Counted from the first letter of the stretch, positions 8,926 to 19,584 are shown. The stretch: 64,000 nucleotides of DNA from an uncultured virus (IMG/VR IMGVR_UViG_3300043775_002819) (IMGVR_UViG_3300043775_002819), one strand, 5' to 3'. The notes: a model not told the origin generated them from the sequence alone. Program-made: numbers and translations.

Positions 8926-9192
8926 TTAAATAGCAGCAGCTCTATGATTTGAACAATTACTATTAAATCCAAAAGCACAATTATTACAACCTTCTGATTG
9001 TTCAGCAAAGTGCTTACAGATTGGATATGCCTTTTCACAACCGATAACTTTAGTGATTATGTGCATATCTGCTTCATATTCATTTTTAAAGTGTTTAATG
9101 TCGTTTTGTGTTTCAACCGCATAATTTCCAGTAAACCCGCTTTTGAATTTAATGTAATCTCCATTTGTTTCGTAACCTGATTTTGTTTTCAT
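8926..9192 (-). CDS. cassette-borne Cys-rich hypothetical protein
   Basis: ORF between sites E and F. Confidence 0.65.
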   Translation of the reverse strand: MKTKSGYETNGDYIKFKSGFTGNYAVETQNDIKHFKNEYEADMHIITKVIGCEKAYPICKHFAEQSEGCNNCAFGFNSNCSNHRAAAI

Positions 9193-9235
9193 ATTATTTT
9201 TATTTAATTTTAATAATTTACGCCATTAAAACGGC

Positions 9236-9286
9236 GGTTAACAGTTAGCAAGTGCAATTGAAACTGCACCTGCTTTTGTGTTAGCG
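9236..9286 (+). repeat. attC-like site F (duplicate of A)
   Basis: Same core and ~30 bp left flank as site A; R' GTTAGCG. Confidence 0.75.
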
Positions 9287-9493
9287 GTCATTGCTACCAA
9301 GCCACTTTACGCATTCGCAAAATCCAGCAATAAAGAACGATTGTTCCTGTGCTGTCAACGGTGGTTCTACCATTTCTGAAATTTTTACAGCCATTACCCC
9401 TGCTTCATCAACCGAAGGCAACGAACCGCTAACAACAGATATACCCAATTTGGGGTTCTGTGTTTCATTTGGATTTTCTGCTTTTTTTGTCAT
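9281..9493 (-). CDS. cassette-borne hypothetical protein, starts inside site G
   Basis: N-terminus PKLGISVVSGS is encoded by the attC arm; stop overlaps GTTA of site F. Confidence 0.65.
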   Translation of the reverse strand: MTKKAENPNETQNPKLGISVVSGSLPSVDEAGVMAVKISEMVEPPLTAQEQSFFIAGFCECVKWLGSNDR

Positions 9494-9557
9494 TTTGTTT
9501 ATAATTTAAAGTTTTTATTATTTAATCCCAAACTGGGTATATCTGCAACCGTTAGTG
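9427..9557 (+). repeat. attC-like site G (long loop)
   Basis: CGCTAAC-AA-CAGATATACCCAATTTGGG...CCCAAACTGGGTATATCTG-CAACC-GTTAGTG. Confidence 0.8.
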
Positions 9558-9755
9558 GCTATTTTGAGCAACATTGGTGTCAATTATAATCGGCTCAATA
9601 AAAGTCCCTAATTCGTATTTTTTATTTTCTCCTTTCGGGTACGGTTCAATTCCGTAATTTAGTTTTTTCATATACTCTTTTCTTTTTGTTTTACTTGTTA
9701 CGCAGTAAAATTCGTGTTCGTCTTCGGGTAGGTTAAATGTTAGTTTTGCTTTCAT
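9552..9755 (-). CDS. hypothetical protein, possibly chimeric
   Basis: Stop overlaps the R' box of site G. Confidence 0.5.
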   Translation of the reverse strand: MKAKLTFNLPEDEHEFYCVTSKTKRKEYMKKLNYGIEPYPKGENKKYELGTFIEPIIIDTNVAQNSH

Positions 9756-9785
9756 ATTATTCTGATTTAATTTTAATAATTTTAG

Positions 9786-9857
9786 CGGTCCATGCGAGAA
9801 TCGAACTCGCGGCTCATCCGTGACAGGGATGAATGTTAGCCACTACACCAATGGACC
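9786..9857 (-). tRNA. tRNA-Asp(GTC)
   Basis: GGTCCAT/ATGGACC stem, loop CTGTCAC, TTCGATT T-loop. Confidence 0.88.
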
Positions 9858-10180
9858 ATTAAAAAAGGTTCTGAATCATCCCCACGCCAGTTTGGGAGAA
9901 CCTTTCAAGTTTTAATATTTGACGACATAATATCCCTCACCGATATGACTAAGATTCGTTAGTCCATAGTAACCATCCACGGTGGGTTTATACTTTCACA
10001 CTCCGTCCTTATTCTATCTCACCATCGTGTCGGGTGGAATCAAACTCAGCGTTCAGTGTTATCCTCAGAACATCTTCACCATACCCCCAAAGTTACGTGG
10101 TGGGTCTCACTCGGAAGACGAGTGTATATTGTAAGATTGTTCAGTGTTCTTACAACTTGTGGATTGTATTACGATCACTT

Positions 10181-10311
10181 AAGACCCCTAACCCCCTCCA
10201 TCCATAATGGGGAACCCTTGTTTGTTCGTGTAGCCTCCCCCATAGCCTTGAAGCCTTCAAGTCAGGTTCACACCCATAACAGCCGGATACTTCTGTTAAT
10301 CGTGGGGTCTT
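10181..10311 (-). ncRNA. putative structured ncRNA, closed terminal stem
   Basis: AAGACCCC...GGGGTCTT terminal pairing, GC-rich, within tRNA transcript. Confidence 0.4.
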
Positions 10312-10314
10312 TTG

Positions 10315-10398
10315 AAGTCAGGGTAGGATTCGAACCTACAATGAGCAACCATTTTTAACAAAATGGATTCAACACCAGGTCTCTTTACACTCCTGACT
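10315..10398 (-). ncRNA. tRNA-like RNA (AGTCAGG acceptor, aberrant D-arm, GTT loop)
   Basis: AGTCAGG/CCTGACT stem, GTAGG-TTCGAAT-CCTAC T-arm, CCATT-TTGTTAA-AATGG hairpin. Confidence 0.6.
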
Positions 10399-10527
10399 AA
10401 CCTTTTTTTACAAATGTAAGACATATATTTAGACTAATCAAATTTTTTTAAAAAAAAAATATAATTTAGGGTTAGTTCGTATGACTTTTTTGTGGGTTCG
10501 TGATATTTATATATAAAGGAAGTTATT

Positions 10528-11430
10528 ATGTTTGAATGTAAAATTTGTAATCGTTATATTGATAATCTTGGTAATCTTAACCAACACATTAAAAAATGTG
10601 AAAAATTACATCTAATAAAAGATGAACTTATTAGATTATATATTGATGAATCTTATAGTGTTAAAGATTTAAGAAAAAAATTTAAATTACAATCTGATGA
10701 CATAAAAATAATATTAGGAGATAAAGTCAGATCGGCATCCGTGGCCAATAAATTAGCCCATAAAAAATATCCAGAAAACTTCAAACATACTGAAGAAAGT
10801 AAAAAAATAATGCGAGAAAAAAGATTGGAGTTTATGAAAAATAATCCTGAAAAAACTGCTTGGAGATTATCCAATGTTTCCTACCCAGAAAAATTATGTA
10901 TTGAATATATTGAAAAAAATGGTTTAGATAAAAAATATGCAATAGTTAGAGAATATTCGGTTTTTCCTTATTTTATTGATTTTGCGTTTGTAAATCAAAT
11001 GGTTGCTATTGAAATTGATGGATCTCAACATCTTTTACCCGAAAGAAAAGAAAGAGACGATAAAAAAGATAAATTATTAAATGAATTAGGTTGGTTAGTT
11101 ATCAGAGTTTCGGAAAAAGAAATTAAAACTAATATTAATAATGTTTTTGATGAAATTGTTTCAATACTGAATAAAAAACCAAAAATAAATAATATAAGAA
11201 TTGGTATGGTAGTTCACCCTAAAAAACACAAGAAAAAAGACAGAAATGAATTTGGTTTTACAGAAAAACAAATCCAATCAATGAAGAGTCAGAGAAAGGT
11301 TGAAAGGCCGAATCATGAAGACTTACTTAAATTGATTGAAGATAACGGTTTTAGGTCAACCGGAAAAATGTTTGGTGTTTCAGATACTGCAATTCGTAAA
11401 TGGGTAAAGTCTTACCAAAAAGGATTATAA
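10528..11430 (+). CDS. DUF559/Vsr-like PD-(D/E)xK endonuclease (putative homing endonuclease)
   Basis: N-terminal CxxC finger, KHTEESKKIM NUMOD-like motif, YFIDFA...IEIDGSQH...D...GWLVIR, C-terminal HTH; inserted antisense in the tRNA cluster. Confidence 0.8.
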   Translation: MFECKICNRYIDNLGNLNQHIKKCEKLHLIKDELIRLYIDESYSVKDLRKKFKLQSDDIKIILGDKVRSASVANKLAHKKYPENFKHTEESKKIMREKRLEFMKNNPEKTAWRLSNVSYPEKLCIEYIEKNGLDKKYAIVREYSVFPYFIDFAFVNQMVAIEIDGSQHLLPERKERDDKKDKLLNELGWLVIRVSEKEIKTNINNVFDEIVSILNKKPKINNIRIGMVVHPKKHKKKDRNEFGFTEKQIQSMKSQRKVERPNHEDLLKLIEDNGFRSTGKMFGVSDTAIRKWVKSYQKGL

Positions 11431-11433
11431 TTG

Positions 11434-11505
11434 TAGCCCATCCCGGTAACGCTCCGAGATTTTTTGGTTGAAAACCAAATGTCCTTACTTTTAGACGAAT
11501 GGGCC
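11434..11505 (-). tRNA. tRNA-Glu(TTC), non-canonical T-loop
   Basis: TTTGG-TTTTCAA-CCAAA anticodon arm; T-loop AGCGTTA. Confidence 0.8.
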
Positions 11506-11516
11506 AAATTAAGAGT

Positions 11517-11629
11517 GTAAAAGATTCGTCTTACCTAAGACCGCGGATCCCCATAAGACTTAACTTTACCAATCTGTTGATTTGCAACTCATCAGATTGT
11601 CAGGTTACTACTCATACAGAACCTTTTAC
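11517..11629 (-). ncRNA. putative structured ncRNA, closed terminal stem
   Basis: GTAAAAGGTTC...GAATCTTTTAC terminal pairing with internal hairpins. Confidence 0.4.
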
Positions 11630-11644
11630 TGCTTTCAGTGTTTA

Positions 11645-11722
11645 CTACGACCATACAGGATTCGAACCTGTGTCCTTCGGCTTGTGTGCCGACGCTCTAA
11701 CCGCTCGAGCTAAAAGCCGTAG
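11645..11722 (-). ncRNA. tRNA-like RNA with irregular anticodon loop
   Basis: Canonical D-arm (TAGCTC...GAGC) and T-arm; weak extended acceptor; loop ACACAA without U33. Confidence 0.55.
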
Positions 11723-11748
11723 ATATTTACTTTCCGCTTTTCTCTTAG

Positions 11749-11901
11749 TAACCCCAGTGGGAATCGAACCCACCTTGTGAACTACATGTAATAAGCTTCA
11801 ACTTTGATACTCCGATCCTAGTATTAAGGAGAGTTACTCGCAAATTACCCTCATTCACCCACTTATCGCCATGGTAGCGAACCATAACCGACTATGGAGT
11901 C
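11749..11901 (-). ncRNA. tRNA-like RNA with ~100-nt insert in place of the anticodon arm
   Basis: GACTCCA/TGGGGTT acceptor, GTGGG-TTCGATT-CCCAC T-arm; own TTTG...TATCTTTG promoter at about 11910-11945. Confidence 0.55.
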
Positions 11902-11965
11902 ATATTGTTAAAACAAAGATAAGTAGAATATTTCAATTTAACAAATCTTTTTTTAACTTTTTTTG

Positions 11966-12039
11966 CGGTCTGGACGGGACTCGAACCCGCGACCCCCTGC
12001 GTGACAGGCAGGTATTCTAACCAACTGAACTACCAGACC
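11966..12039 (-). tRNA. tRNA-Asp(GTC)
   Basis: Canonical cloverleaf, loop CTGTCAC. Confidence 0.92.
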
Positions 12040-12045
12040 AAGTTG

Positions 12046-12119
12046 TGGAGGTAAAGGGATTCGAACCCATGACCCTCTGCGTGCAAGGCAGATGCTCTAG
12101 CCAACTGAGCTATACCCCC
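12046..12119 (-). tRNA. tRNA-Ala(TGC)
   Basis: G3:U70, loop TTGCAC. Confidence 0.92.
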
Positions 12120-12196
12120 ATAACCAAAGTCGCTATTATAAGTAACGACTTTTTAACTTTTTCTCCACTTACTTCTTTCGAATGGAAGATAAGATG

Positions 12197-12269
12197 AGCG
12201 GAAGAAGAGACTCGAACTCTCAACAACCTGCTTGGAAGGCAGGAGCTCTACCAATTGAGCTACTTCCGC
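12197..12269 (-). tRNA. tRNA-Gly(TCC)
   Basis: GCGGAAG/CTTCCGC stem, loop CTTCCAA. Confidence 0.9.
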
Positions 12270-12486
12270 AAAGTGTGACAACCTTTGGGGTCGGTTATCA
12301 CTTTTACGTGAATGGGGTGATCAAACCCACTAACATCACGGGTGTTGGTTTTTCACATTAAACCATCTCCACAAAACGAAAGTTTTTATCAACCAAAACT
12401 TTATAAACGACTTGACTATTTTGTAACCCCCATTTTAAGTGCGTGTTACCTCTTTCTCAAGTAGAACTCTACTGTCGACACTCCCG

Positions 12487-12559
12487 TGCTGATGAAGGGA
12501 CTTGAACCCATAGCCTTGACGATATAAGCGTCCTGCTCTCACCATTGAGCTACATCAGC
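12487..12559 (-). tRNA. tRNA-Ile(TAT)
   Basis: GCTGATG/CATCAGC stem; GACG-CTTATAT-CGTC anticodon arm. Confidence 0.85.
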
Positions 12560-12566
12560 ATTATAG

Positions 12567-12649
12567 TTGCGGGAGGTGGGCTCGAACCACCGGGGTCAAA
12601 GACACGAGGTTATGAGCCTCGCCAGCTACCAACTACTTACTATCCCGCC
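12567..12649 (-). tRNA. tRNA-Met(CAT), initiator-like, with extra variable arm
   Basis: CGAGG-CTCATAA-CCTCG; 1:72 mismatch. Confidence 0.75.
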
Positions 12650-12656
12650 TTATTTG

Positions 12657-12731
12657 TGGTATGGGAATGGAATCGAACCATCGGCACAAGGGGTTTCCGT
12701 CCCTTTGCTCTACCTACTGAGCTACCACACC
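12657..12731 (-). tRNA. Phe-like tRNA with 8-nt anticodon loop (possible pseudogene)
   Basis: AAGGG-ACGGAAAC-CCCTT; normal D and T arms. Confidence 0.55.
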
Positions 12732-12758
12732 ATTTTATGTAAAATTACTAAAAATATA

Positions 12759-13268
12759 TTATTTAAACAACTTACCTTGATAATTTTTAGCAACTTCTTT
12801 TAATTTTTCATTTGAGTAGTTTGAGTGTTCTAATCTGTGACACAACGCACATAACAAATCACATTTATCTAACTCATTTTTCACTTTATCCCAACTCATA
12901 TTTGCCATGTTGAGGGCACTTGAGTTAAAATCTTTTTCTTCTGGGTCTCTATGATGAAGGTCATATCCTGATAAATCACCTTTCCACCCACACTTAACAC
13001 ATTCACCACCCAAATATTTAACCGCGTATTCCTTAACTCTATACCTTCGTATGTTTACAGAACACATTTGACAAAAATTCTTACTTGTTATTGTTTTTCC
13101 ACAAAGTTTACAACAAGTTTCTTCCTTTTTGTTATACTCAATTCCGTTTCTATTTATTATTCTATAAACCGTTCTTCTTCCAATACCTAAGTCATTAGAT
13201 ATTTCGGTCGGTGTTTTTTTTTCGGTATACAACCTAATAACCTCTAATTCTTTTTCTGTTTTCTTCAT
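12759..13268 (-). CDS. HTH + HNH endonuclease
   Basis: N-terminal HTH, CxxC pairs, YDLHHRDP and CDLLCALCHRLEH. Confidence 0.85.
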   Translation of the reverse strand: MKKTEKELEVIRLYTEKKTPTEISNDLGIGRRTVYRIINRNGIEYNKKEETCCKLCGKTITSKNFCQMCSVNIRRYRVKEYAVKYLGGECVKCGWKGDLSGYDLHHRDPEEKDFNSSALNMANMSWDKVKNELDKCDLLCALCHRLEHSNYSNEKLKEVAKNYQGKLFK

Positions 13269-13348
13269 ATCTCTTTATTAATAAATATCAAGAAAAAATA
13301 GAAAAGACACACTTTTAGTAAAAAAAAATATACTTTTTGTGTCTTTTG

Positions 13349-13450
13349 TAGTCAGGACAGGATTTGAACCTGTATTGGTGACCGACTTAATTACTTGGGA
13401 CTTGAACCCACACCACTCTTCCGATGCGTCTACCATTCCGCCACCTGACT
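13349..13450 (-). ncRNA. tRNA-like RNA B2 (AGTCAGG family)
   Basis: AGTCAGG/CCTGACT acceptor, TGGCGGAATGGTAGACGC D-arm, ACAGG-TTCAAAT-CCTGT T-arm, ~50-nt non-anticodon middle. Confidence 0.65.
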
Positions 13451-13465
13451 ATTTGAGGTTGAGTT

Positions 13466-13578
13466 CCTCTGTGTTGTCTGTACTGTTTTACCCCCAATCA
13501 AACGATTGACATTACTTTTAATGTAATCAGTTTCATACGTAGCGTCTGTTCAGTCTTCCTTTCTCAAGGGAACAACAC
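13466..13578 (-). ncRNA. repeat RNA module A2
   Basis: GTGTTGTTCCCTTGAGAAAGGAA...ACAACACAGAGG. Confidence 0.55.
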
Positions 13579-13582
13579 TTTG

Positions 13583-13702
13583 TAGTCAGGACAGGATTCG
13601 AACCTGTATTGTCATTGTGGCAGGCTATTCTACCTGCGACCTATATCTCGAATTTTATACGAGAACACTTTGAACTATTGGCAACCGTTTCGCCACCTGA
13701 CC
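13583..13702 (-). ncRNA. tRNA-like RNA B1 (AGTCAGG family)
   Basis: GGTCAGG/CCTGACT acceptor, same T-arm as B2, different ~70-nt middle. Confidence 0.65.
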
Positions 13703-13719
13703 ATTTGAGAATGAGAGGT

Positions 13720-13805
13720 CCTCTGTGTTGTAGTGTGCGATTACAATTTTTGTAATTCAAGTAATGTCACTCTTCTTTACAATTCCTTTCTCAAGGGAAC
13801 AACAC
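13720..13805 (-). ncRNA. repeat RNA module A1
   Basis: Same conserved ends as A2, different middle. Confidence 0.55.
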
Positions 13806-13955
13806 AATATTGTCGATAGTGTTGGAGTACCCATCTCGCTCCAATCTTAACTGCTTAATCGTAGTTTTACGAGGCCTCGGCAGAAACGGTGATGAATTCC
13901 TGATCCACTCTGGATTGTCGACATCCGTTGAGTGGGGTAAACCACTATCAATATT
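13806..13955 (-). ncRNA. putative structured ncRNA
   Basis: AATATT-GATAGTG...CACTATC-(GAC)-AATATT terminal stem, GC-rich interior. Confidence 0.45.
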
Positions 13956-13961
13956 TTAAAA

Positions 13962-14094
13962 TGTTTAACGGTTATAGATACTTTATTATCTCCACTTTTA
14001 GTTCCCAACGTAAAGATCACTCTTCCTAATTGTCTTTTAAGTTTCACAGATTTTTATCCTCTCTAACACTTTATCAATACTTTGCCGTTAAACA
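13962..14094 (-). ncRNA. putative structured ncRNA
   Basis: TGTTTAACGG/CCGTTAAACA 10-bp terminal stem. Confidence 0.4.
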
Positions 14095-14111
14095 CTTAAT
14101 ATCTTAAAAAA

Positions 14112-14334
14112 TGGTAAGACCTTAAGATTTACTCATTCGTGGGTCACCCCATCCGTACTACCTATACCTCGCCTTTAACATCCGTTCTACCCAAACCATC
14201 GTTTTTACCTGTTAACCTTTCGGAAAACTTTGAGTACCTCCTCAATCCATTAGTCTGATAGGGGCTCCGTTTTGCTCGTCATTTCTGACTCCCTATGGGA
14301 TTCTGCCGATATAGGTCTATCTGCTATCTTACCA
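14112..14334 (-). ncRNA. putative structured ncRNA (~220 nt)
   Basis: TGGTAAGA/TCTTACCA terminal stem directly after a boxA-like element at 14343-14353. Confidence 0.45.
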
Positions 14335-14479
14335 ATCTAATATGTCAATGAACTTTTTCTCTTTTGTGTGGGGGTGAGTCCACCATCACATTTTCTCACC
14401 CCCGTTGTTTGTTTTACAAATATAAGAACTTTATTTTGATCTGCCAAACACTTTGTAAAATATTTTTTATTTTTTTCTG

Positions 14480-14560
14480 TAGTCCGGGAGGGACTCGAAC
14501 CCTCACGCATTGCGCATTCGATCTTAAGCCGAACGTGTATACCGATTCCAACACCGAACC
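14480..14560 (-). tRNA. tRNA-Leu(TAA)
   Basis: TTCGG-CTTAAGA-TCGAA with long variable arm. Confidence 0.88.
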
Positions 14561-14643
14561 ATTTTCACCATTATGTCAAAGAACCTTTGTCTTTTGTTTC
14601 ACAAAGATAGTGATCTTTTTGAAACTACCAAACTTATATTCAC

Positions 14644-14673
14644 AAAAAAACCCCTCTTTTTTGGGGAGGGGTT
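14644..14673 (-). terminator. attenuator terminator 1
   Basis: AACCCCTC...GAGGGGTT followed by T-run, ~24 nt after the leader stop. Confidence 0.75.
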
Positions 14674-14696
14674 CTAAATATTATATGTATAAAATA

Positions 14697-14765
14697 TTAC
14701 ACCCTCCTCTTGAAAGTTGCCTCAGCTAAATCGCCCCCTATCAATAATATGTGTAAATTTTTCAT
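14697..14765 (-). CDS. putative attenuator leader peptide 1, MKNLHILLIGGDLAEATFKRRV
   Basis: Read manually; promoter upstream (TTGACA...TATATTTATA); 3' end GGAGGGT can pair with terminator arm ACCCCTCC. Confidence 0.7.
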   Translation of the reverse strand: MKNLHILLIGGDLAEATFKRRV

Positions 14766-14840
14766 TTGCGGTTTTTAAGTTTTGTTATAAATATATGATA
14801 CTTTTAGAAAGTGTCAAGTTTTATGGATTATTTTTTTAAT

Positions 14841-15230
14841 TTACGCCTCGTAGTGACTTGGGAACCATTCACCGCCATTTCTTAGATATTTCTCAATTTC
14901 TTGTGGGTCAACTAAATCTAAAACTAAATATTTTTTACCTTTTAAATCATCTTCAAAAAGTTCGTAACCAAATGTTTTACCATCGGGTGATTCTAACCAA
15001 TAGATATCCATATCATCATCTTTTATTAATTCAGTAGGTAATACTTCATTTGTCATAGTCCCAACCCAATACATTTGATATTTAGGTAATATTTCTTTAA
15101 CATACATAAATCCAGGATAATTCTCGTTATTGAAATAAACTTTACCTAATCTATTATTTTCATTTTCTTTAATCACTCGTTTAACTATGTTAGTCAAATC
15201 AGATTCTGTAATTCTTATTATTTTTTTCAT
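14841..15230 (-). CDS. hypothetical protein with MKKIIRITESDL leader
   Basis: Member of the repeated N-terminal leader family. Confidence 0.75.
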   Translation of the reverse strand: MKKIIRITESDLTNIVKRVIKENENNRLGKVYFNNENYPGFMYVKEILPKYQMYWVGTMTNEVLPTELIKDDDMDIYWLESPDGKTFGYELFEDDLKGKKYLVLDLVDPQEIEKYLRNGGEWFPSHYEA

Positions 15231-15302
15231 ATTAATAAATATGAGATCAAAAAGTTATTATTTTAGAAAAAATCTAAAATTTAGTATATATACTATTTTT
15301 TG

Positions 15303-15376
15303 TGCCCCCAGCAGGACTCGAACCTGCAAAATTGTGATCCTAAATCACATGCGTATGCCAATTCCGCCATAGGGGC
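15303..15376 (-). tRNA. tRNA-Leu(TAG), short variable loop
   Basis: TGTGA-TTTAGGA-TCACA; Leu-type D-loop; no long variable arm. Confidence 0.85.
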
Positions 15377-15384
15377 ATTTGTTG

Positions 15385-15456
15385 AGGTCAGGGTGGGATT
15401 CGAACCCACATACCGAGATTTTGCAGATCTGGACTTTACCTATCAGACACCCGACC
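15385..15456 (-). tRNA. tRNA-Cys(GCA)
   Basis: AGAT-CTGCAAA-ATCT; U73. Confidence 0.8.
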
Positions 15457-15458
15457 AA

Positions 15459-15914
15459 TTAACGACAATGAAAATCTGCCGCCTTTGTTGCAATTTGGTT
15501 ATCAGGTTTAATATTCGCCTTATAACCCAAAGAATTAACCCACCCAACCGCAGGACCAACCAACTTTGAACTAAAGTGTTGTTCTTGAGCGTTATAATCA
15601 AGATCAATCTCAAGTTTAACATTCACCTTACTTGTTAAAAAGTTTGCAACCTCAATTGAATAATCGGCTTCATTCCATAACCTTGTCCACTTATCACGAA
15701 TTTTTTTAACCTTATGTTTGTGATATATATAGTGAACTCCGCGGTTTCCATACCGATATGCTATTGCGGTTACATATACAGTCGATCTTCTGTGGTTTTG
15801 AGAATCAGTTCCAACATGAATTTCAACATAAGGACATTCATTTAAAATATCCAAAGTGTGTTTTGATATGTCAGAAACTGGATTTCCATCAACCTTTCTA
15901 AATACTCGGTTCAT
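15459..15914 (-). CDS. RNase H-like protein (YkuK/DUF458-like)
   Basis: IHVGTDSQ, RLWNEA..S, EIDLDYN, ATKAAD motifs. Confidence 0.8.
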   Translation of the reverse strand: MNRVFRKVDGNPVSDISKHTLDILNECPYVEIHVGTDSQNHRRSTVYVTAIAYRYGNRGVHYIYHKHKVKKIRDKWTRLWNEADYSIEVANFLTSKVNVKLEIDLDYNAQEQHFSSKLVGPAVGWVNSLGYKANIKPDNQIATKAADFHCR

Positions 15915-15937
15915 TTTATCTCCTTTTTAATTGTTTG

Positions 15938-16010
15938 TGGACCGGGACGGAATCGAACCATCCACGCCTAGATCTTCAGTCTAGCGCTCTACCAACTGAG
16001 CTACCGGTCC
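15938..16010 (-). tRNA. tRNA-Phe(GAA)
   Basis: CTAGA-CTGAAGA-TCTAG. Confidence 0.92.
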
Positions 16011-16015
16011 TTATT

Positions 16016-16091
16016 TGGCGCGTCGTCAGGGAATCGAACCCATGTCTATGCGAGGTTTTGGAGGCCTGCCGCTTCCATAAGCTACGACGCA
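16016..16091 (-). tRNA. tRNA-Trp(CCA), encoded CCA end
   Basis: Loop CTCCAAA; imperfect anticodon stem. Confidence 0.7.
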
Positions 16092-16098
16092 AATATTG

Positions 16099-16171
16099 TA
16101 CCTTCGGAGAGACTCAAACTCCCATCTTGTGATCCGTAGTCACAGGTTCTTTTCAATTGAACTACGAAGGT
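16099..16171 (-). tRNA. tRNA-Arg(ACG)
   Basis: TGTGA-CTACGGA-TCACA. Confidence 0.88.
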
Positions 16172-16177
16172 ATTTTG

Positions 16178-16251
16178 TGTGTATGATGGGGGTCGAACCC
16201 ATGACCTCTTGACCCACAATCAAGCACTCTGCCAACTGAGCTACATACACC
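16178..16251 (-). tRNA. tRNA-His(GTG)
   Basis: CTTGA-TTGTGGG-TCAAG; G-1 encoded. Confidence 0.88.
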
Positions 16252-16257
16252 ATGTAG

Positions 16258-16327
16258 TACCGATAAAGGGTATCGAACCAAATGACATCCAGGATATGAG
16301 CCCGGACCGGAAACCTTTCCTATCGGC
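16258..16327 (-). tRNA. tRNA-Met/Ile2(CAT), reduced D-arm
   Basis: CCGGG-CTCATAT-CCTGG. Confidence 0.65.
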
Positions 16328-16330
16328 AGA

Positions 16331-16684
16331 TTATAAAAAATTACTAATTTGTTTTAGTTTGTCTTTTAACTTGTTAAACTCTTTTCTACCCTTTATCAAT
16401 TTTTTACACTTTGGGTAAAATCTTATTGTATCATCACCAAGTTTCTCAAATTCAATTTCTAAATCAAAAATAATGTTTTCTATATTCTTATGATATTCAT
16501 TCTTAATGTCAAACCAAGGAAATTTTTCACCCCAATTTTTGTGTCCCCAACAAGATTGTGTTGTTCCGATGTTATTATAATTAAGTAAAACAATTAACTC
16601 TCTTATACCATCGTCAATTTTACAACCCAATCCATCTGTAACTATTTTTGATTTTTCATCTATTTTTTTATATCTGTCATTCAT
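16331..16684 (-). CDS. small protein with TYW3-like N-terminal motif
   Basis: IDDGIRELIVLLN...TTQSCWGH resembles the TYW3 IDxxI..LN..TTSSCSGR motif. Confidence 0.55.
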   Translation of the reverse strand: MNDRYKKIDEKSKIVTDGLGCKIDDGIRELIVLLNYNNIGTTQSCWGHKNWGEKFPWFDIKNEYHKNIENIIFDLEIEFEKLGDDTIRFYPKCKKLIKGRKEFNKLKDKLKQISNFL

Positions 16685-16709
16685 ATGAATTATTTTTTGT
16701 CATAAGTTG

Positions 16710-16793
16710 CGGAAGACATTGGAATCGAACCAAATACCCGAAGGTACATCTCGCTTAGCAGGCGGACCCTATCTCCATCAAGGTTTATCTTCC
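16710..16793 (-). tRNA. tRNA-Ser(GCT)
   Basis: Loop CTGCTAA; variable arm TACC-TTCG-GGTA. Confidence 0.8.
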
Positions 16794-16797
16794 GTAG

Positions 16798-16874
16798 TCG
16801 GCACAGTAGGAATCGAACCTACATGGGACCTATTAACCTTTCAACCGCGTATCAGACGGAGGGTATATGTGCCG
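16798..16874 (-). tRNA. atypical tRNA-Ile(GAT), no canonical D-arm
   Basis: CGGCACA/TGTGCCG acceptor, CCGT-CTGATAC-GCGG, canonical T-arm. Confidence 0.6.
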
Positions 16875-16884
16875 TAGTTTTTTG

Positions 16885-16956
16885 CGGACTGGGAGAATTA
16901 CGATATCTCGACCTCAACCTTAACAGGGTTTTGCTCTGCCTCTGAGCTACCAGTCC
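16885..16956 (-). tRNA. tRNA-Asn(GTT)
   Basis: Loop CTGTTAA; T-loop ATCGTAA. Confidence 0.82.
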
Positions 16957-16960
16957 AGTG

Positions 16961-17041
16961 TGGGAGAGGAGGGACTCGAACCCCCAAGGCTTTCGCGACA
17001 GATTTACAGTCTGCTGAGCCAACCAATTGCTCAACTCTCCC
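16961..17041 (-). tRNA. tRNA-Tyr(GTA)
   Basis: GCAGA-CTGTAAA-TCTGT with long variable arm. Confidence 0.9.
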
Positions 17042-17104
17042 AAAAATCTAATTCTATGATACCGTCGTCCACATAAGGTCTATGAATTAGTAACAGTCTC
17101 CTCG

Positions 17105-17178
17105 TGCACCCTACAGGGATCGAACCTGTGACCTGTTGTATGTAAAACAACCGCTACTACCTGCTGAGCTAAAGGTGC
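17105..17178 (-). tRNA. tRNA-Val(TAC)
   Basis: GTTGT-TTTACAT-ACAAC. Confidence 0.88.
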
Positions 17179-17250
17179 TTGTTTTAGTTTTTCAGAACAA
17201 AAGTAACCACTTTTTGGTAATGAACGCTCAGTTTTACTAAATTTTTTTTG

Positions 17251-17323
17251 TCCCCCCGGCCGGTTACGATCCGACTCTCCCCATATTAAAAGTATGGTGC
17301 TTTCCCGATTAAGCTACGAGGGG
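17251..17323 (-). tRNA. tRNA-Lys(TTT)
   Basis: CCATA-CTTTTAA-TATGG; T-loop ATCGTAA. Confidence 0.82.
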
Positions 17324-17383
17324 TTTTGTTTGTCATACTTGTCACTTTCCATGATACTTGTTTTTTTATTTGTTTATTTATAG

Positions 17384-17456
17384 TAGGGTAGACAAGACTC
17401 GAACTTGCATCGTCCACGTCCCAAACGTGGTGACTTACCAATTAGTCAACTACCCT
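17384..17456 (-). tRNA. tRNA-Pro(TGG)
   Basis: CCACG-TTTGGGA-CGTGG. Confidence 0.85.
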
Positions 17457-17459
17457 ATA

Positions 17460-17546
17460 TGGAGGAAGAGTGAGGTGTCGATCCCCATACCTTTCAGTAC
17501 CTGCCGTTTTCAAGACGGAGTCACAAGCCGTTGTGATTACTCTTCC
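17460..17546 (-). tRNA. tRNA-Ser(TGA), encoded CCA
   Basis: CCGT-CTTGAAA-ACGG with long variable arm. Confidence 0.8.
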
Positions 17547-17553
17547 ATTATCG

Positions 17554-17624
17554 TTGTCTCGGCTGGACTCGAACCAACACACCCGGAGTCAAAATCCGGT
17601 GCCCTGCCTTTAGGCTACGAGACA
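17554..17624 (-). tRNA. tRNA-Gln(TTG)
   Basis: CCGGA-TTTTGAC-TCCGG. Confidence 0.88.
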
Positions 17625-17640
17625 ATTTATGAAACCAATA

Positions 17641-17651
17641 TGTCAAAGAAC
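17641..17651 (-). promoter_or_regulatory. boxA-like antitermination element
   Basis: GTTCTTTGACA; also at 14574-14584, with variants at 2195, 3641, 14343, 19689. Confidence 0.55.
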
Positions 17652-17658
17652 CTTTTTG

Positions 17659-17730
17659 AGCTCCGTACCAGATTCGAACTGATTTCTTCTGATTACAAGT
17701 CAGACGCATCGCCATCAATGCTTACAGAGC
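17659..17730 (-). tRNA. tRNA-Thr(TGT)
   Basis: TCTGA-CTTGTAA-TCAGA. Confidence 0.88.
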
Positions 17731-17741
17731 CAATATAAAAC

Positions 17742-17773
17742 AAAAAACCCGAGATTTTTAAGTCTCGGGTTTT
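17742..17773 (-). terminator. attenuator terminator 2
   Basis: AACCCGAGA-loop-TCTCGGGTT plus T-run, ending ~11 nt before tRNA-Thr. Confidence 0.8.
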
Positions 17774-17804
17774 ACATTCCTTTTATTATGTTAGTTAAAC
17801 GTTT

Positions 17805-17909
17805 TTAACTCATAAGTGAAAATACCCTCGACTGATTTCGCGTAATATAGCTAAACGACCACTGATTGCTCGGTAGACAATTGACCATATGTTTGAGTGT
17901 ATTTTTCAT
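17805..17909 (-). CDS. putative attenuator leader peptide 2, MKNTLKHMVNCLPSNQWSFSYITRNQSRVFSLMS
   Basis: Read manually; TATATTTG promoter upstream; AGTCGAGGGTATT near the 3' end can pair with terminator arm AAAACCCGAGACT. Confidence 0.75.
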   Translation of the reverse strand: MKNTLKHMVNCLPSNQWSFSYITRNQSRVFSLMS

Positions 17910-17993
17910 TTTTATTATAATTATATCGTTTTTTTAAAAAGTTTCAATTTCTTTACAAATATAGTAATCTTTTTTTAATTGACAAGTTTTTTT

Positions 17994-18374
17994 CTAAAAT
18001 TTTATTATAACTCCTGTCGTATGAAAAACTTGACCATTACTTAATCCTGTGATAAAGGCTCGTTGAAACACCTTAACATTTGGAGATATGTAAAATCTTG
18101 CCCTTATGTCGTAAGAACCTGCAAATAAAATATCGTCCACGGTTAGATCAGAGAATTTATCCTGGAAGGGAACCCTTTTTAATTTGGTGCTTACCGACAA
18201 TTGGAATTGTCCATAATCAAGTTTATAAACATAATCATTTTTTGGTTTAAAGGTTATTTTTTTAAAGTTGGATTCCGCAATTGACTGATAATCCATATTT
18301 GAATATTGTCTCATCAAAGGTTGAGAATAACCAATGAAGGTAAAAAATAAAAGAGTAATAAAAATTGTTTTCAT
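17994..18374 (-). CDS. secreted protein, possible outer-membrane beta protein
   Basis: Signal peptide; C-terminal ...GVIIKF. Confidence 0.65.
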   Translation of the reverse strand: MKTIFITLLFFTFIGYSQPLMRQYSNMDYQSIAESNFKKITFKPKNDYVYKLDYGQFQLSVSTKLKRVPFQDKFSDLTVDDILFAGSYDIRARFYISPNVKVFQRAFITGLSNGQVFHTTGVIIKF

Positions 18375-18378
18375 AATA

Positions 18379-18876
18379 TTATTTTATCTCAAATGCACAC
18401 CTCATAGGTCGTTTTGTTTTAATTGAATCTTCAGGGTTTCCAATTACAACACCGTCTTTGATTGTAAAAGCGTGTCTTCTAACCAATACAAAGAAAGTTC
18501 CTTTTGGGTTTTGTTTAACAAATGTTCCAACGGTCATGTTTCTTTTTTTAGTCTCACCTTTTACTTTAACATCATACATTAATGATCTTAACAAATGATC
18601 GTTGTGTCTTACTCCAAGAGGACAAACTTTTTTACCGTTAACCTTGATCAAACTGTCGGCCATTTTAACAAGAGTTGTTATAGTCCCGTAAGTTCCTTTT
18701 CTTGGTTTTCTTCCAAACTCATCTGCAACGTATTTGTGAGCGTAATCATAAGACACATCGAATGAAGATGCAAATGCTCTAACAACACAATCATTTGTTT
18801 CTCCTTTGGCGATGGCAGAATCACTATATCCTTTAATCGCATTTCCTGTTTTTTCGTATGGTAATTTGTTTGTCAT
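18379..18876 (-). CDS. hypothetical protein (NDCVVRA motif, papain-like?)
   Basis: DCVVRA...RRHAFTI suggests a Cys/His dyad. Confidence 0.6.
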   Translation of the reverse strand: MTNKLPYEKTGNAIKGYSDSAIAKGETNDCVVRAFASSFDVSYDYAHKYVADEFGRKPRKGTYGTITTLVKMADSLIKVNGKKVCPLGVRHNDHLLRSLMYDVKVKGETKKRNMTVGTFVKQNPKGTFFVLVRRHAFTIKDGVVIGNPEDSIKTKRPMRCAFEIK

Positions 18877-18896
18877 ACTGTAAAGATAAGTAATTT

Positions 18897-19367
18897 TTAC
18901 AATTCAACAAAATAAAAACTAGAATTGTCATTAGAATTTAATGACTTATAACCTCTTTTTTGATAAATGTTGTTTGCAATTTCATTATCATTATCAGAAA
19001 TAAAAGATAGATAATTATATCCGTTATTTTTTGCAAATTCATGTGCCAAATCTAATAAGTGTGACCCATGTCCCTGTTTTCTATGGTTTTCATCCACCTC
19101 TAAAGTGTGCATAAAAAGACAATTATCATAATTTAATGGAATGGTTTGAAACTTGGATTCGTCATATAAAGTATTGAAGTTCAGATCTAAATTTTCACCA
19201 TCATTCATTTTGGATATATGGATAAAACCAATAGTATTATTATCAGGAGACGTTAACTCAATGTTTTTTCCAAAGTATCCATCTAAATCACCTTTATATA
19301 CAATTTGGACTTGTGGTTGTTCATACATCAAGTTTTTAATCCTGTGGATCTGTTCGTTGAGGTTCAT
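18897..19367 (-). CDS. GNAT acetyltransferase with N-terminal leader
   Basis: LEVDENHRKQGHGSHLL motif A, N...IYQKRGY; start set at MNLNEQ. Confidence 0.8.
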   Translation of the reverse strand: MNLNEQIHRIKNLMYEQPQVQIVYKGDLDGYFGKNIELTSPDNNTIGFIHISKMNDGENLDLNFNTLYDESKFQTIPLNYDNCLFMHTLEVDENHRKQGHGSHLLDLAHEFAKNNGYNYLSFISDNDNEIANNIYQKRGYKSLNSNDNSSFYFVEL

Positions 19368-19469
19368 AATTATAAATATCATAAAGATACTTATCATAAT
19401 CTTCAGAGTTAATAAACTCCTCGTGAATTTGTTGATGTATGTCTTCCATAATACTAATATAAATATATT

Positions 19470-19508
19470 TTAGTTTGTTCTAATTGTCACAGGGAAATTC
19501 ATGGGAAA
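19470..19508 (+). pseudogene. remnant of an HNH endonuclease C-terminus (LVCSNCHREIHGK)
   Basis: Manual translation; resembles the LLCALCHRLEH end of 12759..13268. Confidence 0.45.
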
Positions 19509-19512
19509 GTAG

Positions 19513-19584
19513 TAGGTCCACCTGGAATCGAACCAGGAATACAAGCTTAGAAGGCTAGGGTTATATCCGTTTAACTATGGACCC
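19513..19584 (-). tRNA. tRNA-Arg(TCT)
   Basis: Loop CTTCTAA. Confidence 0.88.

What the first reader, a model, noticed from the sequence alone, without database searches (positions are those of the whole stretch)
11434..14820. Second, complementary attenuator: leader rich in UUR-Leu, AUA-Ile, Gly, Asp, Ala and Glu ahead of the second RNA operon
Seen in sequence: a 22-aa ORF at 14765-14697 (MKNLHILLIGGDLAEATFKRRV, same ATG AAA AAT start as leader 2) followed ~24 nt later by a terminator (14673-14644). Its last codons (GGAGGGT) can pair with the terminator arm ACCCCTCC with one bulge. All four Leu codons are TTA/TTG and the first downstream gene is tRNA-Leu(TAA). Both Ile codons are ATA and the cluster has tRNA-Ile(TAT). 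The GGDLAEA run supplies the G, D, A and E missing from leader 2, matching tRNA-Gly, -Asp, -Ala and -Glu here. Caveats: host-type promoters at about 14600-14632, 14415-14450 and 11910-11945 lie downstream of the terminator, so control may be partial; K, H, T, R and V have no cognate tRNA in this cluster. Inference: the two leaders divide the genetic code between the two operons.
Basis: partly seen in the sequence, partly recalled or inferred. Interest (0 to 1): 0.88.

Follow-up and report, generated by a model that had tools for sequence, protein, structure and literature searches.

The report
Leader-peptide attenuator before phage tRNA genes
A large uncultured lake phage places a tiny translated test gene and a switchable transcription stop in front of a block of its own tRNA genes, written in the codons those tRNAs read, so it probably makes more of them when ribosomes read those codons slowly.

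Summary

**The unit.** It runs promoter, 22-codon ORF (14765-14697), then terminator (14673-14644). I recovered 31 distinct variants from related giant-phage contigs. Only this frame is open, in 31 of 31.

**The switch.**
- The last codons (14709-14702) pair with the terminator's 5' arm (14670-14663).
- This antiterminator pairs in 94% of cells, and 4 of 8 pairs show compensatory changes. That is as good as the terminator itself.

**The codon match.**
- The leader holds a codon for every amino acid whose tRNA ARAGORN calls downstream (89 of 89 across 23 arrangements). The sister leader 2 scores 288 of 288.
- A relative with one undivided array has a single 47-codon leader holding all 20 amino acids.
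- A relative with only seven or eight tRNAs has a leader whose core uses only their amino acids.

**Limits.**
- The TTA/TTG and ATA codon choices are ordinary for this phage.
- 23 of 31 variants, this window included, carry a host-type promoter after the terminator, so control is partial.
- There is no direct expression evidence.

**Novelty.** Five literature searches found no paper on this control for tRNA genes. This scan has noted the same kind of element on other DNA, including a relative of this one.

The parts
14788..14817 (-). Leader promoter: TTG (14817-14815), 19-nt spacer, TATATTTA (14795-14788). It also fits TTGACA-16-TATATT.
   Evidence: The same promoter type recurs at 17947 and 19734. 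The -7 box is 98% conserved across the 31 variants. The host-type (Bacteroidota) consensus is recalled, not tested.
14697..14765 (-). Leader ORF, 22 codons plus TAA: MKNLHILLIGGDLAEATFKRRV.
   Evidence: It is open in 31 of 31 variants, and the other two frames are closed in all 31. Both indels between subtypes are 3 nt long.
14738..14756 (-). Region 1: 5' strand of hairpin P1 (codons 4-10; UUACAC plus an inner helix).
   Evidence: RNAalifold. 98.7% of cells pair, with one pair changed on both sides. Covariation support is weak.
14697..14716 (-). Region 2: 3' strand of P1 (codons 17-22 and the stop codon). It overlaps the antiterminator box.
14702..14709 (-). Antiterminator box GAGGAGGG (last base of codon 19 to first base of codon 22).
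   Evidence: It pairs with 14670-14663. On 28 distinct rows, 94.2% of cells pair, 4 of 8 pairs change on both sides, and slid controls give 45-70%. The helix forms in folds of the nascent RNA.
14644..14673 (-). Intrinsic terminator (regions 3 and 4): AACCCCTC, loop CCCAAAAAA, GAGGGGTT, ending in a T7 run (14650-14644).
   Evidence: 97.2% of cells pair and 2 of 9 pairs change on both sides.
14602..14632 (-). Internal host-type promoter: TTTG (14632-14629), 19 nt, TATCTTTG (14609-14602). It lies inside a stretch of about 58 nt that some relatives lack.
   Evidence: a TAnnTTTG follows the terminator in 23 of 31 variants. A contig in run X1 skips 14586-14645.
14568..14585 (-). boxA-like motif GGTTCTTTGACATAATGG.
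   Evidence: The 14-mer GGTTCTTTGACATA lies in the 16S-23S spacer, just upstream of 23S, in Aquirufa (2 genomes), Rufibacter and a Bacteroidetes MAG. The name boxA rests on recalled knowledge of rRNA operons.
14479..14560 (-). tRNA-Leu(TAA), the first gene after the attenuator.
11433..14478 (-). Rest of the second RNA array. It holds a second internal promoter (14448-14417) and boxA-like site (14353-14345), an unassigned noncoding stretch (about 14330-13720), and two tRNA-like genes (13700-13590, 13450-13349). A 169-aa ORF follows (13268-12759). Then come tRNAs Phe, Met, Ile(TAT), Gly, Ala, Asp, one unassigned and Glu.

Best explanation
This is a ribosome-mediated (leader-peptide) transcription attenuator placed ahead of a phage tRNA array.

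**Shown from sequence and comparison.**
- A promoter drives a short transcript that carries a 22-codon ORF.
- The ORF's early codons (region 1) pair with its last codons and stop codon (region 2).
- Region 2 can instead pair with the 5' arm of an intrinsic terminator (region 3), which blocks the terminator hairpin (regions 3:4).

**Inferred, by analogy with the trp, his, leu and thr leaders.**
- A ribosome that reads the leader quickly reaches the stop codon and covers region 2. The terminator then forms and transcription ends about 135 nt from the start.
- A ribosome that stalls within codons 4-15 (L H I L L I G G D L A E) holds region 1 away from region 2. Region 2 pairs with region 3, and RNA polymerase reads through into a boxA-like site and the tRNA genes.
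- Those codons belong to the amino acids whose tRNAs lie downstream: Leu(TAA), Ile(TAT), Gly, Asp, Ala and Glu. The element would therefore raise tRNA transcription when these codons are decoded slowly and lower it once supply is adequate. That is a feedback meter of tRNA supply.

**Relation to leader 2.** Leader 2 (17909-17805) would do the same for the other block of tRNAs. In this window, an internal promoter after the terminator gives a basal, unregulated supply as well.
For: **1. The unit is a conserved module.** nhmmer found it in 44 of 71 related loci, giving 31 distinct variants of two subtypes with 22 and 24 codons.

**2. The antiterminator is supported.**
- 94.2% of cells pair, 4 of 8 pairs change on both sides, and 0 of 500 shuffles reach the covariation score. 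Slid controls give 45-70%.
- The terminator scores 97.2%.
- Box and arm change together across lineages: GAGAGGG/CCCTCTC, GGAGGG/CCCTCC (this window), GAAGAGGG/CCCTCTTC, GGAGATGG/CCATCTCC and TGAAGATGG/CCATCTTCA.

**3. Folding agrees.** Full-length RNA gives P1 plus the terminator. Nascent RNA without the 3' arm gives the box:arm helix in 6 of 6 representatives.

**4. The frame is preserved.**
- Only the ORF frame is open, in 31 of 31 variants for each leader.
- 7 of 8 gap runs inside the ORFs are 3 nt long, against 7 of 25 after the stop codons (Fisher p = 0.005).

**5. Codon content tracks the tRNA content.**
- In 23 distinct arrangements, 89 of 89 cluster-2 identities appear in leader 1 and 288 of 288 cluster-1 identities appear in leader 2. 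Swapping the leaders gives 43 of 89 and 176 of 288.
- L117 has one array of 27 tRNAs with no second leader. Its single 47-codon leader holds all 20 amino acids (simulated p = 0.016).
- L119 and L118 carry only Thr, Gly, (Ser), Leu, Leu, Arg, Met and Ile tRNAs. Their leader has a run of 15 residues drawn only from T, S, R, L, G and I (simulated p for a run of 14 or more = 3e-5).
- Leader 1 has in-set runs of 11 residues (22-codon subtype) and 12 residues (24-codon subtype). Simulated p = 0.004 for a run of 10 or more and 0.0009 for 12 or more.

**6. Some relatives need read-through.** In 8 of 31 variants, tRNA-Leu(TAA) starts 25-31 nt after the terminator with no promoter motif between them. 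The same holds for tRNA-Thr after leader 2, L117 and L119.
Against: - There is no experimental or decisive transcript evidence. The public RNA runs are held only as contigs. One 195-nt contig spans leader 2, its terminator and tRNA-Thr, but it may derive from DNA.
- In this window and 22 other variants, a TAnnTTTG promoter follows the terminator at +33-36 or +60-62. The downstream tRNAs therefore do not depend on read-through.
- One variant (L040/L016) has lost the terminator. One variant (L103) lacks the usual promoter.
- P1 has little covariation, with one pair changed on both sides in each subtype. 11 of 500 and 78 of 500 shuffles match it.
- The thermodynamic fold of the nascent RNA prefers the antiterminator even without a ribosome. 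The default state is therefore uncertain.
- His5 is not cognate to the downstream set. Nor are the S, T, R and V found at some positions of the sensing region in some variants.
- The amino-acid sets and sensing regions were chosen after seeing the data, and the loci are related, so the counts are not independent.
- Coverage of the 8 amino acids by a random 22-mer is not rare (p = 0.09).
- The TTR and ATA codon choices are ordinary for this phage.
Confidence: 0.7

Rival explanations
1. It is a general translation-capacity sensor. The ORF and switch work as described, but they report only whether ribosomes are present and moving, as proposed for the whiB7 uORF attenuator. They do not report the supply of particular tRNAs, and the codon match is a by-product.
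For: The switch and frame evidence fit equally well. Some non-cognate codons sit in the sensing region (His5; S, T, R or V in some variants). The codon choices are ordinary for the phage.
Against: Coverage of the downstream tRNA identities is complete (89 of 89 and 288 of 288), against 48-61% when the leaders are swapped. Leader 2 excludes Asp and Glu in 28, and Gly in 29, of 32 variants. The leaders of L117 and L119 change with their tRNA sets.
Confidence: 0.13
2. It is an independent small gene. The promoter, 130-nt transcript and terminator make a stand-alone small RNA or a 22-residue peptide with its own function. It merely lies in the RNA-gene region.
For: It has its own promoter and terminator, and a promoter follows the terminator in 23 of 31 variants. 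The whole module is evenly conserved, at 85-87% per segment. Attenuator RNAs and leader peptides can act in trans in Sinorhizobium (abstracts of PMC6614838 and PMC7298713, seen in search listings).
Against: A terminator-excluding helix that covaries has no purpose in a stand-alone gene. The peptide is not conserved as a protein: variable sites are even across codon positions (4:5:7 and 8:9:10), and amino-acid changes outnumber synonymous types. Pfam and NCBIfam give no match, and Rfam gives none. Eight variants place a tRNA 25-31 nt after the terminator with no promoter.
Confidence: 0.1
3. It is an RNA switch read by something other than the ribosome, such as a tRNA (T-box-like), a protein or a small molecule. 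The ORF is incidental.
For: The alternative helices are well supported. Leaders 1 and 2 share a TTTAGCT motif that is read in different frames.
Against: Rfam gives no T-box or riboswitch match at E up to 1. The frame is preserved through 3-nt indels, and only one frame is open in 31 of 31 variants. The amino-acid content tracks the tRNA sets.
Confidence: 0.04
4. It is the ordinary terminator of the upstream 129-aa gene, with a chance ORF in the spacer.
For: A single 22-codon open frame is common in this window (31%). The terminator lies 170 nt after the gene's stop codon.
Against: The upstream gene differs among relatives while the unit is kept with its own promoter. The ORF is kept in 31 of 31 variants, and the antiterminator covaries.
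Confidence: 0.02

Closest known systems
Leader-peptide (class I) transcription attenuators of amino-acid operons, especially the multivalent thr (Thr/Ile) and ilvGMEDA (Leu/Val/Ile) leaders; also trpL, hisL, leuL and pheL (recalled knowledge)
   Same: A short translated ORF sits in the leader. Regions 1:2, 2:3 and 3:4 pair alternatively, ending in an intrinsic terminator. The regulatory codons lie in region 1, and the stop codon lies next to region 2.
   Different: The controlled genes are tRNAs, not biosynthetic enzymes. The leader carries single codons for six or more amino acids (up to all 20 in a relative) rather than runs of one. The host is inferred to be Bacteroidota, and the element is phage-borne. 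The signal would be tRNA supply, which closes a direct feedback loop.
T-box riboswitch (recalled knowledge)
   Same: Antitermination responds to the state of tRNA. The antiterminator's 3' strand is the terminator's 5' arm.
   Different: No Rfam T-box match. The element is about 130 nt long, with no Stem I or specifier loop. It carries a conserved ORF instead. T-boxes control synthetase and amino-acid genes, not tRNA genes.
whiB7 (wblC) uORF attenuator of Actinobacteria
   Same: A uORF with a terminator/antiterminator switch reads through when translation is slowed.
   Different: The whiB7 attenuator responds to general translation stress and controls a transcription factor. Here the codon content matches the downstream tRNA genes.
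Rfam Thr_leader RF00506
   Same: The sister leader 2 gives a weak match over its terminator region (33.2 bits, E = 0.0046).
   Different: The match is below the gathering score of 55. Leader 1 gives no match.
rRNA-operon boxA / Nus antitermination (recalled knowledge)
   Same: The motif GGTTCTTTGACATA after the attenuator is identical to one in the 16S-23S spacer of Aquirufa and Rufibacter, just upstream of 23S.
   Different: Here it precedes phage tRNA genes and follows a leader-peptide attenuator. Nus-factor binding was not tested.

Membership tests
Leader-peptide (ribosome-mediated) transcription attenuator | A short ORF with a start codon lies in the transcribed leader, and its frame is conserved. 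| tested here: met
   The ORF is open in 31 of 31 variants and the other frames are closed in all. In-ORF indels are 3 nt long in 7 of 8 cases, against 7 of 25 outside.
Leader-peptide (ribosome-mediated) transcription attenuator | An intrinsic terminator lies between the ORF and the controlled genes. | tested here: met
   Hairpin plus T7 run at 14673-14644. 97.2% of cells pair. One of 19 variants in the first set lacks it.
Leader-peptide (ribosome-mediated) transcription attenuator | An antiterminator helix excludes the terminator and involves the 3' end of the ORF. | tested here: met
   14709-14702 pairs with 14670-14663. 94.2% of cells pair, 4 of 8 pairs change on both sides, and 0 of 500 shuffles reach the score. 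It forms in nascent-RNA folds in 6 of 6 representatives.
Leader-peptide (ribosome-mediated) transcription attenuator | A 1:2 hairpin sequesters region 2 when the leader is not being translated. | tested here: inconclusive
   P1 is predicted in both subtypes with different sequences and pairs in 98.7-100% of cells. Only one pair per subtype changes on both sides, and 11 of 500 and 78 of 500 shuffles match it.
Leader-peptide (ribosome-mediated) transcription attenuator | The regulatory codons correspond to the product of the controlled genes. | tested here: met
   89 of 89 downstream tRNA identities are present in leader 1, against 43 of 89 in leader 2. The leaders of L117 and L119 follow their tRNA sets. 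The codons occur singly, not as runs of one codon.
Leader-peptide (ribosome-mediated) transcription attenuator | The controlled genes are amino-acid biosynthesis or related protein genes. | tested here: not met
   The downstream genes are tRNAs and other RNAs.
Leader-peptide (ribosome-mediated) transcription attenuator | Read-through depends on translation of the leader. | not testable with these tools
   Only contigs of public RNA runs could be laid on the sequence, and they cannot show ends or levels.
T-box riboswitch | A match to the T-box covariance model (Stem I, specifier, T-box sequence). | tested here: not met
   No Rfam match at E up to 1 in 9000-21000 apart from tRNAs and weak chance hits.
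Rfam Thr_leader (RF00506) | A score at or above the gathering threshold of 55 bits. | tested here: not met
   No match on leader 1. Leader 2 scores 33.2 bits.
rrn-type boxA antitermination site (adjacent element) | The same motif occurs in the rRNA operons of the likely host phylum, upstream of 23S. | tested here: met
The other 11 gave no rRNA within 1.2 kb.
rrn-type boxA antitermination site (adjacent element) | Binding of NusB/NusE and resistance to termination. | not testable with these tools
   No test was possible.

The most novel reading that the evidence does not exclude
Phages of freshwater Bacteroidota meter their own tRNA supply codon by codon.
- Each tRNA sub-array is gated by a leader peptide that holds at least one codon for every tRNA in that sub-array.
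- Two leaders split the genetic code between two arrays. Where the arrays are fused, one leader carries all 20 amino acids.
- A shortage of any one tRNA stalls the ribosome and opens transcription of the whole block. Read-through polymerase is then made termination-resistant by a host-type boxA.

This would be the first leader-peptide attenuation known to control RNA genes, and the most multivalent attenuator known.
Probability: 0.55. Interest if true: 0.9.

Novelty: new variant of a known kind. Interest (0 to 1): 0.85.

Why it matters
- **New target for a classic mechanism.** Leader-peptide attenuation is the textbook way bacteria sense amino-acid supply. Using it to control tRNA genes, with a leader that samples many codons at once, would extend it to a new class of target.
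- **Regulation of phage tRNA arrays.** It would give the first mechanism by which the large tRNA arrays of phages are regulated rather than simply expressed.
- **A testable idea about what phages monitor.** It implies that phages monitor codon-specific decoding capacity in the infected cell.
- **A compact natural design.** The unit is about 150 nt long and could serve as a design for sensors of tRNA availability.
- **Comparative leverage.** The leaders covary with the tRNA sets across lineages, so the idea can be tested by further comparison as well as at the bench.

Tried and rejected
- **Phage database searches.** A megablast of the region against GenBank phages found only tRNA-sized matches. 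A tblastn with a 587-aa neighbour found nothing. The relatives came from IMG/VR instead.
- **Own assembly.** The window's own assembly is not held, so I used the nearest record, G001.
- **Consensus terminator scan.** It did not list this terminator because its loop is 9 nt long.
- **Single-sequence fold.** The z-score is unremarkable (-1.87).
- **Family searches.** Pfam and NCBIfam scans of five leader peptides gave no family.
- **Public RNA runs.**
  - All four runs laid on the sequence are kept as contigs.
  - Depth over the leader 1 bins is low, and the contigs break at the hairpins.
  - These data say nothing about starts, ends or levels.
  - Stretches without cover are not evidence.
- **Leader 2 antiterminator.** RNAalifold on 31 variants predicted only the terminator. 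By eye, the box:arm pairing is clear in some variants and weak in others, so I do not lean on it.
- **boxA genome scan.** Only the 4 rRNA-spacer cases among the 15 Bacteroidota loci I tested are used.
- **Rejected reading: the codon choices as evidence.** TTA/TTG and ATA are too common in this phage for that.
- **Rejected reading: a small conserved protein.** Variable sites show no bias toward third codon positions.

Full report
**What the window is.**
- The window is 32.6% G+C. It matches an IMG/VR viral contig of 140 kb, rated 48% complete.
- Relatives that are complete or nearly so measure 257-291 kb.
- ARAGORN finds 25 tRNA genes, all on the minus strand.
- Searches of GenBank phages gave only tRNA-sized matches.
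- G001, G002 and G003 each hold a gene resembling ribosomal protein S21, scoring 23.7-27.7 bits against a cut-off of 27.
- A paper describes S21-encoding freshwater phages of 293-331 kb, 31-34% G+C and 5-25 tRNAs, predicted to infect Bacteroidetes (PMC9723584; passages read). The promoters here fit the TTTG / TAnnTTTG pattern that I recall for that phylum.

**Observation check.**
- The ORF is at 14765-14697.
- The terminator is at 14673-14644, with a 9-nt loop. That loop length is why the consensus scan did not list it.
- The codons, the downstream tRNAs and the three internal promoters are all as described.
- The pairing of the last codons with the terminator arm needs no bulge: GGAGGG (14707-14702) pairs with CCCTCC (14670-14665).
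- Taken alone, none of this exceeds chance.
  - 31% of random 22-codon frames in the window are open.
  - The single-sequence fold has a z-score of -1.87.
  - TTA/TTG make up 67% of Leu codons and ATA 29% of Ile codons in the window's 29 long ORFs.

**The unit is a conserved module.**
- The same promoter type occurs three times, at 19734, 17947 and 14817.
- Two exact anchors found the leader in 26 further IMG/VR loci. With the window's own copy that makes 27 sequences and 19 distinct variants.
- A search with the 151-aa protein that lies between the tRNA blocks gave 71 loci. An nhmmer profile found leader 1 in 44 of them, giving 31 distinct variants. The other 27 loci gave no hit. Several of them end before the place where the leader would lie, and five belong to more distant phages with other arrangements. 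I did not examine each one.
- There are two subtypes.
  - The 22-codon subtype reads MKNLHI[LS]L[IL]G[GA]DLAE..FK..V and ends in TAA.
  - The 24-codon subtype reads MKNLHI[IT][LTS]L[GR]GL[AV][IGE]AED....[MV]V and ends in TGA.
- The gene upstream differs among relatives. The unit is therefore not simply the tail of that gene.
- Conservation is even across the promoter spacer, 5' UTR, ORF, linker and terminator, at 85-87%. The -7 box is 98% conserved.

**The RNA switch.** These counts use the alignment of 31 variants, which has 28 distinct rows.
- The terminator pairs in 97.2% of cells, and 2 of 9 pairs change on both sides.
- The alternative helix joins the last codons to the terminator's 5' arm.
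  - It pairs in 94.2% of cells, and 4 of 8 pairs change on both sides.
  - 0 of 500 shuffles reach its covariation score. Slid controls give 45-70% pairing.
  - Two rows are misaligned by one column, which counts against the helix.
- The box and the arm change together across lineages.
- RNAalifold also predicts a hairpin, P1, that ties the early codons to the stop-codon region.
  - In the 22-codon subtype, UUACAC pairs with GUGUAA and there is an inner helix.
  - In the 24-codon subtype, CAUAUCAU pairs with AUGGURUG.
  - P1 pairs in 98.7-100% of cells but varies little. Its covariation support is weak.
- Folding agrees. Full-length RNA gives P1 plus the terminator. RNA lacking the terminator's 3' arm gives the box:arm helix in 6 of 6 representatives, with or without a masked ribosome footprint.
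- Together these give the four-region geometry of the classical attenuators. Which state is the default remains uncertain.

**Is it translated?**
- Only the ORF frame is open in 31 of 31 variants of leader 1. The same holds for 31 of 31 variants of leader 2. The other two frames are closed in every variant.
- 7 of 8 gap runs inside the two ORFs are 3 nt long. The exception lies at the very end of the leader 2 ORF. After the stop codons, 7 of 25 gap runs are multiples of three (Fisher p = 0.005).
- Variable sites are spread evenly over codon positions (4:5:7 and 8:9:10). Amino-acid changes outnumber synonymous types (11 against 5, and 21 against 11).
- So the frame is kept but the peptide sequence is not. 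That fits a regulatory leader and not a functional small protein.
- Pfam and NCBIfam give no match. Rfam gives none on leader 1.

**Codon content against tRNA content.**
- The order of tRNAs is conserved across five genomes:
  - leader 2; Thr, Gln, Pro, Lys, Val, Tyr, Asn, (Ile GAT), His, Arg, (Arg), Trp, Phe;
  - a protein gene; Cys, Leu(TAG); a protein gene;
  - leader 1; Leu(TAA) ... Met, Ile(TAT), Gly, Ala, Glu, Asp.
- Leader 1 keeps L, I, G, A, E and D in both subtypes, although their order differs.
- All 32 variants of leader 2 keep W, C, Y, P, Q, N, K, T and F, and 31 of 32 keep H. It lacks Asp and Glu in 28, and Gly in 29. Cys moves from place to place within the peptide.
- In 23 distinct arrangements, every tRNA identity called downstream is present in its own leader. 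The counts are 288 of 288 for leader 2 and 89 of 89 for leader 1. Swapping the leaders gives 176 of 288 and 43 of 89. The loci are related, so these counts are not independent.
- Two more distant lineages act as natural experiments.
  - L117 has one array of 27 tRNAs that includes Gly, Ala, Asp, Glu and Leu(TAA), with no second leader between them. Its single 47-codon leader contains all 20 amino acids.
  - L119, L121 and L118 carry only Thr(TGT), Gly(TCC), [Ser(TGA)], Leu(TAG), Leu(TAA), Arg(TCT), Met and Ile(TAT). Their 28-codon leader has a core, ITSTRLGILRLIGTS, made only of those amino acids and mostly of their exact codons. Its last codons (GATCCAG) pair with its own terminator arm (CTGGATC).
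- I simulated random peptides with the window's amino-acid frequencies.

| Event | Probability |
|---|---|
| All 20 amino acids in 47 residues | 0.016 |
| Run of 14 or more in-set residues (L119) | 3e-5 |
| Leader 2 covers its 13 amino acids and lacks G, A, D and E | 2.5e-6 |
| Leader 1, 22-codon subtype: in-set run of 10 or more (observed 11) | 0.004 |
| Leader 1, 24-codon subtype: in-set run of 12 or more (observed 12) | 0.0009 |
| A random 22-mer covers the 8 amino acids | 0.09 |

- The sets were chosen after seeing the data.
- The non-cognate residues of leader 1 sit where other constraints act.
  - MKN is shared by the window's two leaders; the other leader 2 variants begin MKT or MRT, and the L119 leader begins MN.
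  - His5 (CAC or CAU) lies in the P1 stem.
  - Residues 16-22 form region 2.

**After the terminator.**
- In 8 of 31 variants, tRNA-Leu(TAA) starts 25-31 nt after the T-run with no TAnnTTTG motif between them.
- In 23 of 31 variants, this window included, a TAnnTTTG motif lies at +33-36 (17 variants) or +60-62 (6 variants).
- A contig in run X1 skips 14586-14645, which is the promoter-bearing insert.
- Just before the tRNA lies GGTTCTTTGACATAATGG. Copies also lie at 17651, 19698 and 14353.
I tested this as follows.
  - The exact 14-mer occurs in the 16S-23S spacer, after the spacer tRNAs and 35-70 nt before 23S. This holds in two Aquirufa genomes, a Rufibacter and a Bacteroidetes MAG.
  - These are 4 of the 15 Bacteroidota loci I tested.
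  - That position matches the spacer boxA of rRNA operons as I recall it.
- The motif suggests two things. Read-through polymerase may be made termination-resistant, and the host may be a freshwater member of the Cytophagales or a relative. Neither is shown.

**Expression data.**
- Seventeen public runs hold parts of the stretch, all as contigs.
- I laid four of them on the sequence. One 195-nt contig from a metatranscriptome (X11) matches 17703-17897 without a single difference. It therefore spans the leader 2 ORF, its terminator and 28 nt of tRNA-Thr.
- DNA carry-over cannot be excluded, and contigs show no ends or levels.

**Mechanism and rivals.**
- I take the element to be a leader-peptide attenuator whose sensing codons (4-15) are those of the downstream tRNAs. 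It would act as a negative feedback on tRNA supply (confidence 0.7).
- The main rival keeps the switch but denies codon specificity (0.13).
- A stand-alone small RNA or peptide gene (0.10) fails to explain the covarying antiterminator and the promoter-less tRNAs.
- A sensor that does not use the ribosome (0.04) fails to explain the frame preservation.
- A plain terminator with a chance ORF (0.02) is contradicted by the conservation.

**Known comparisons and novelty.**
- The element works like the multivalent thr and ilv leaders. It fails one defining feature of that family, because the controlled genes are RNAs.
- It is not a T-box, and it is not a member of Rfam Thr_leader.
- Five full-text searches found no paper on leader-peptide attenuation of tRNA genes (listings and abstracts seen).
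- A paper on a stress-induced tRNA array in cyanobacteria does not contain the words attenuat-, leader or terminator in its main text (PMC8421152).
- This scan has noted the same kind of element in at least 33 other genomes. One note concerns a relative of this very leader. Those notes are unchecked AI notes and did not shape my reading, except for the boxA lead.

**Limits.**
- All the evidence is comparative and computational.
- The relatives share ancestry.
- ARAGORN may miss or mislabel tRNAs with introns or unusual loops.
- Several RNA genes in the array are unassigned.
- The transcription start is inferred from the promoter only.

Noticed in passing
window 14585-14568, 17651-17643, 19698-19690, 14353-14345 (minus strand): A boxA-like motif (GGTTCTTTGACATA...) follows each promoter or attenuator and precedes RNA genes. 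The exact 14-mer lies in the 16S-23S spacer of Aquirufa, Rufibacter and a Bacteroidetes MAG, just upstream of 23S. This hints at the host.
   Followed up: partly
window about 14330-13720 (minus strand): A stretch of about 600 nt with no long ORF lies behind an internal promoter and a boxA-like site. Rfam gives no match at E up to 1. It may be a large unknown structured RNA.
   Followed up: no
window 13700-13590 and 13450-13349 (minus strand); also L009 about 4700-4600: Two paralogous tRNA-like genes share acceptor and T arms (GTCAGG...CCTGAC) and carry a large insert in place of a normal anticodon arm. The second scores 42 bits as tRNA in Rfam, and ARAGORN calls neither. Each is preceded by a repeated module, TGTGTTGTTCCCTTGAGAAAGGAA ... 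CAACACAGAGGA.
   Followed up: no
window 12485-12270 (minus strand); L117 5690-5907: A noncoding element of about 215 nt directly upstream of tRNA-Gly is conserved between this phage and a distant relative. Rfam gives no match.
   Followed up: no
window 11646-11720 and about 11745-11890 (minus strand): One tRNA has a six-base anticodon loop, which ARAGORN labels '???'. Next to it lies a tRNA-like stretch with a long insert.
   Followed up: no
L117 1898-2041: In a relative with one undivided array of 27 tRNAs, the single leader ORF has 47 codons and contains all 20 amino acids. Its box GACTCG pairs with its own terminator arm CGAGTC.
   Followed up: partly
L119 3146-3232 (also L118, L121): The leader MNYTVSNITSTRLGILRLIGTSPTQDPV lies ahead of a small array: Thr, Gly, (Ser), Leu, Leu, Arg, Met, Ile. 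Its core uses only those amino acids, and its last codons pair with its terminator arm.
   Followed up: partly
window 17738-17817 (minus strand): Rfam Thr_leader gives a sub-threshold match (33.2 bits against 55) on the terminator region of leader 2, directly upstream of tRNA-Thr.
   Followed up: no
G003 (L054), tRNA-Leu(TAA) after leader 1: With its intron option, ARAGORN predicts a 208-nt insert in the anticodon loop of tRNA-Leu(TAA). This is the classic site of a group I intron. It was not verified.
   Followed up: no
L040 / L016 (IMG/VR contig 3300008117_000445): One variant has lost the terminator and the internal promoter. This joins the leader directly to the boxA-like motif, making a natural constitutive form.
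   Followed up: no
G001 38825-38971; G002 9466-9615; G003 13497-13643: Each record holds a gene resembling ribosomal protein S21, scoring near the Pfam cut-off. This links these phages to the published S21-encoding freshwater phages of Bacteroidetes.
   Followed up: partly
window 12759-13268 (minus strand) and 10528-11430 (plus strand): Protein ORFs of 169 and 300 aa lie inside and beside the tRNA array. Relatives carry different inserts at these places. No family search was run.
   Followed up: no
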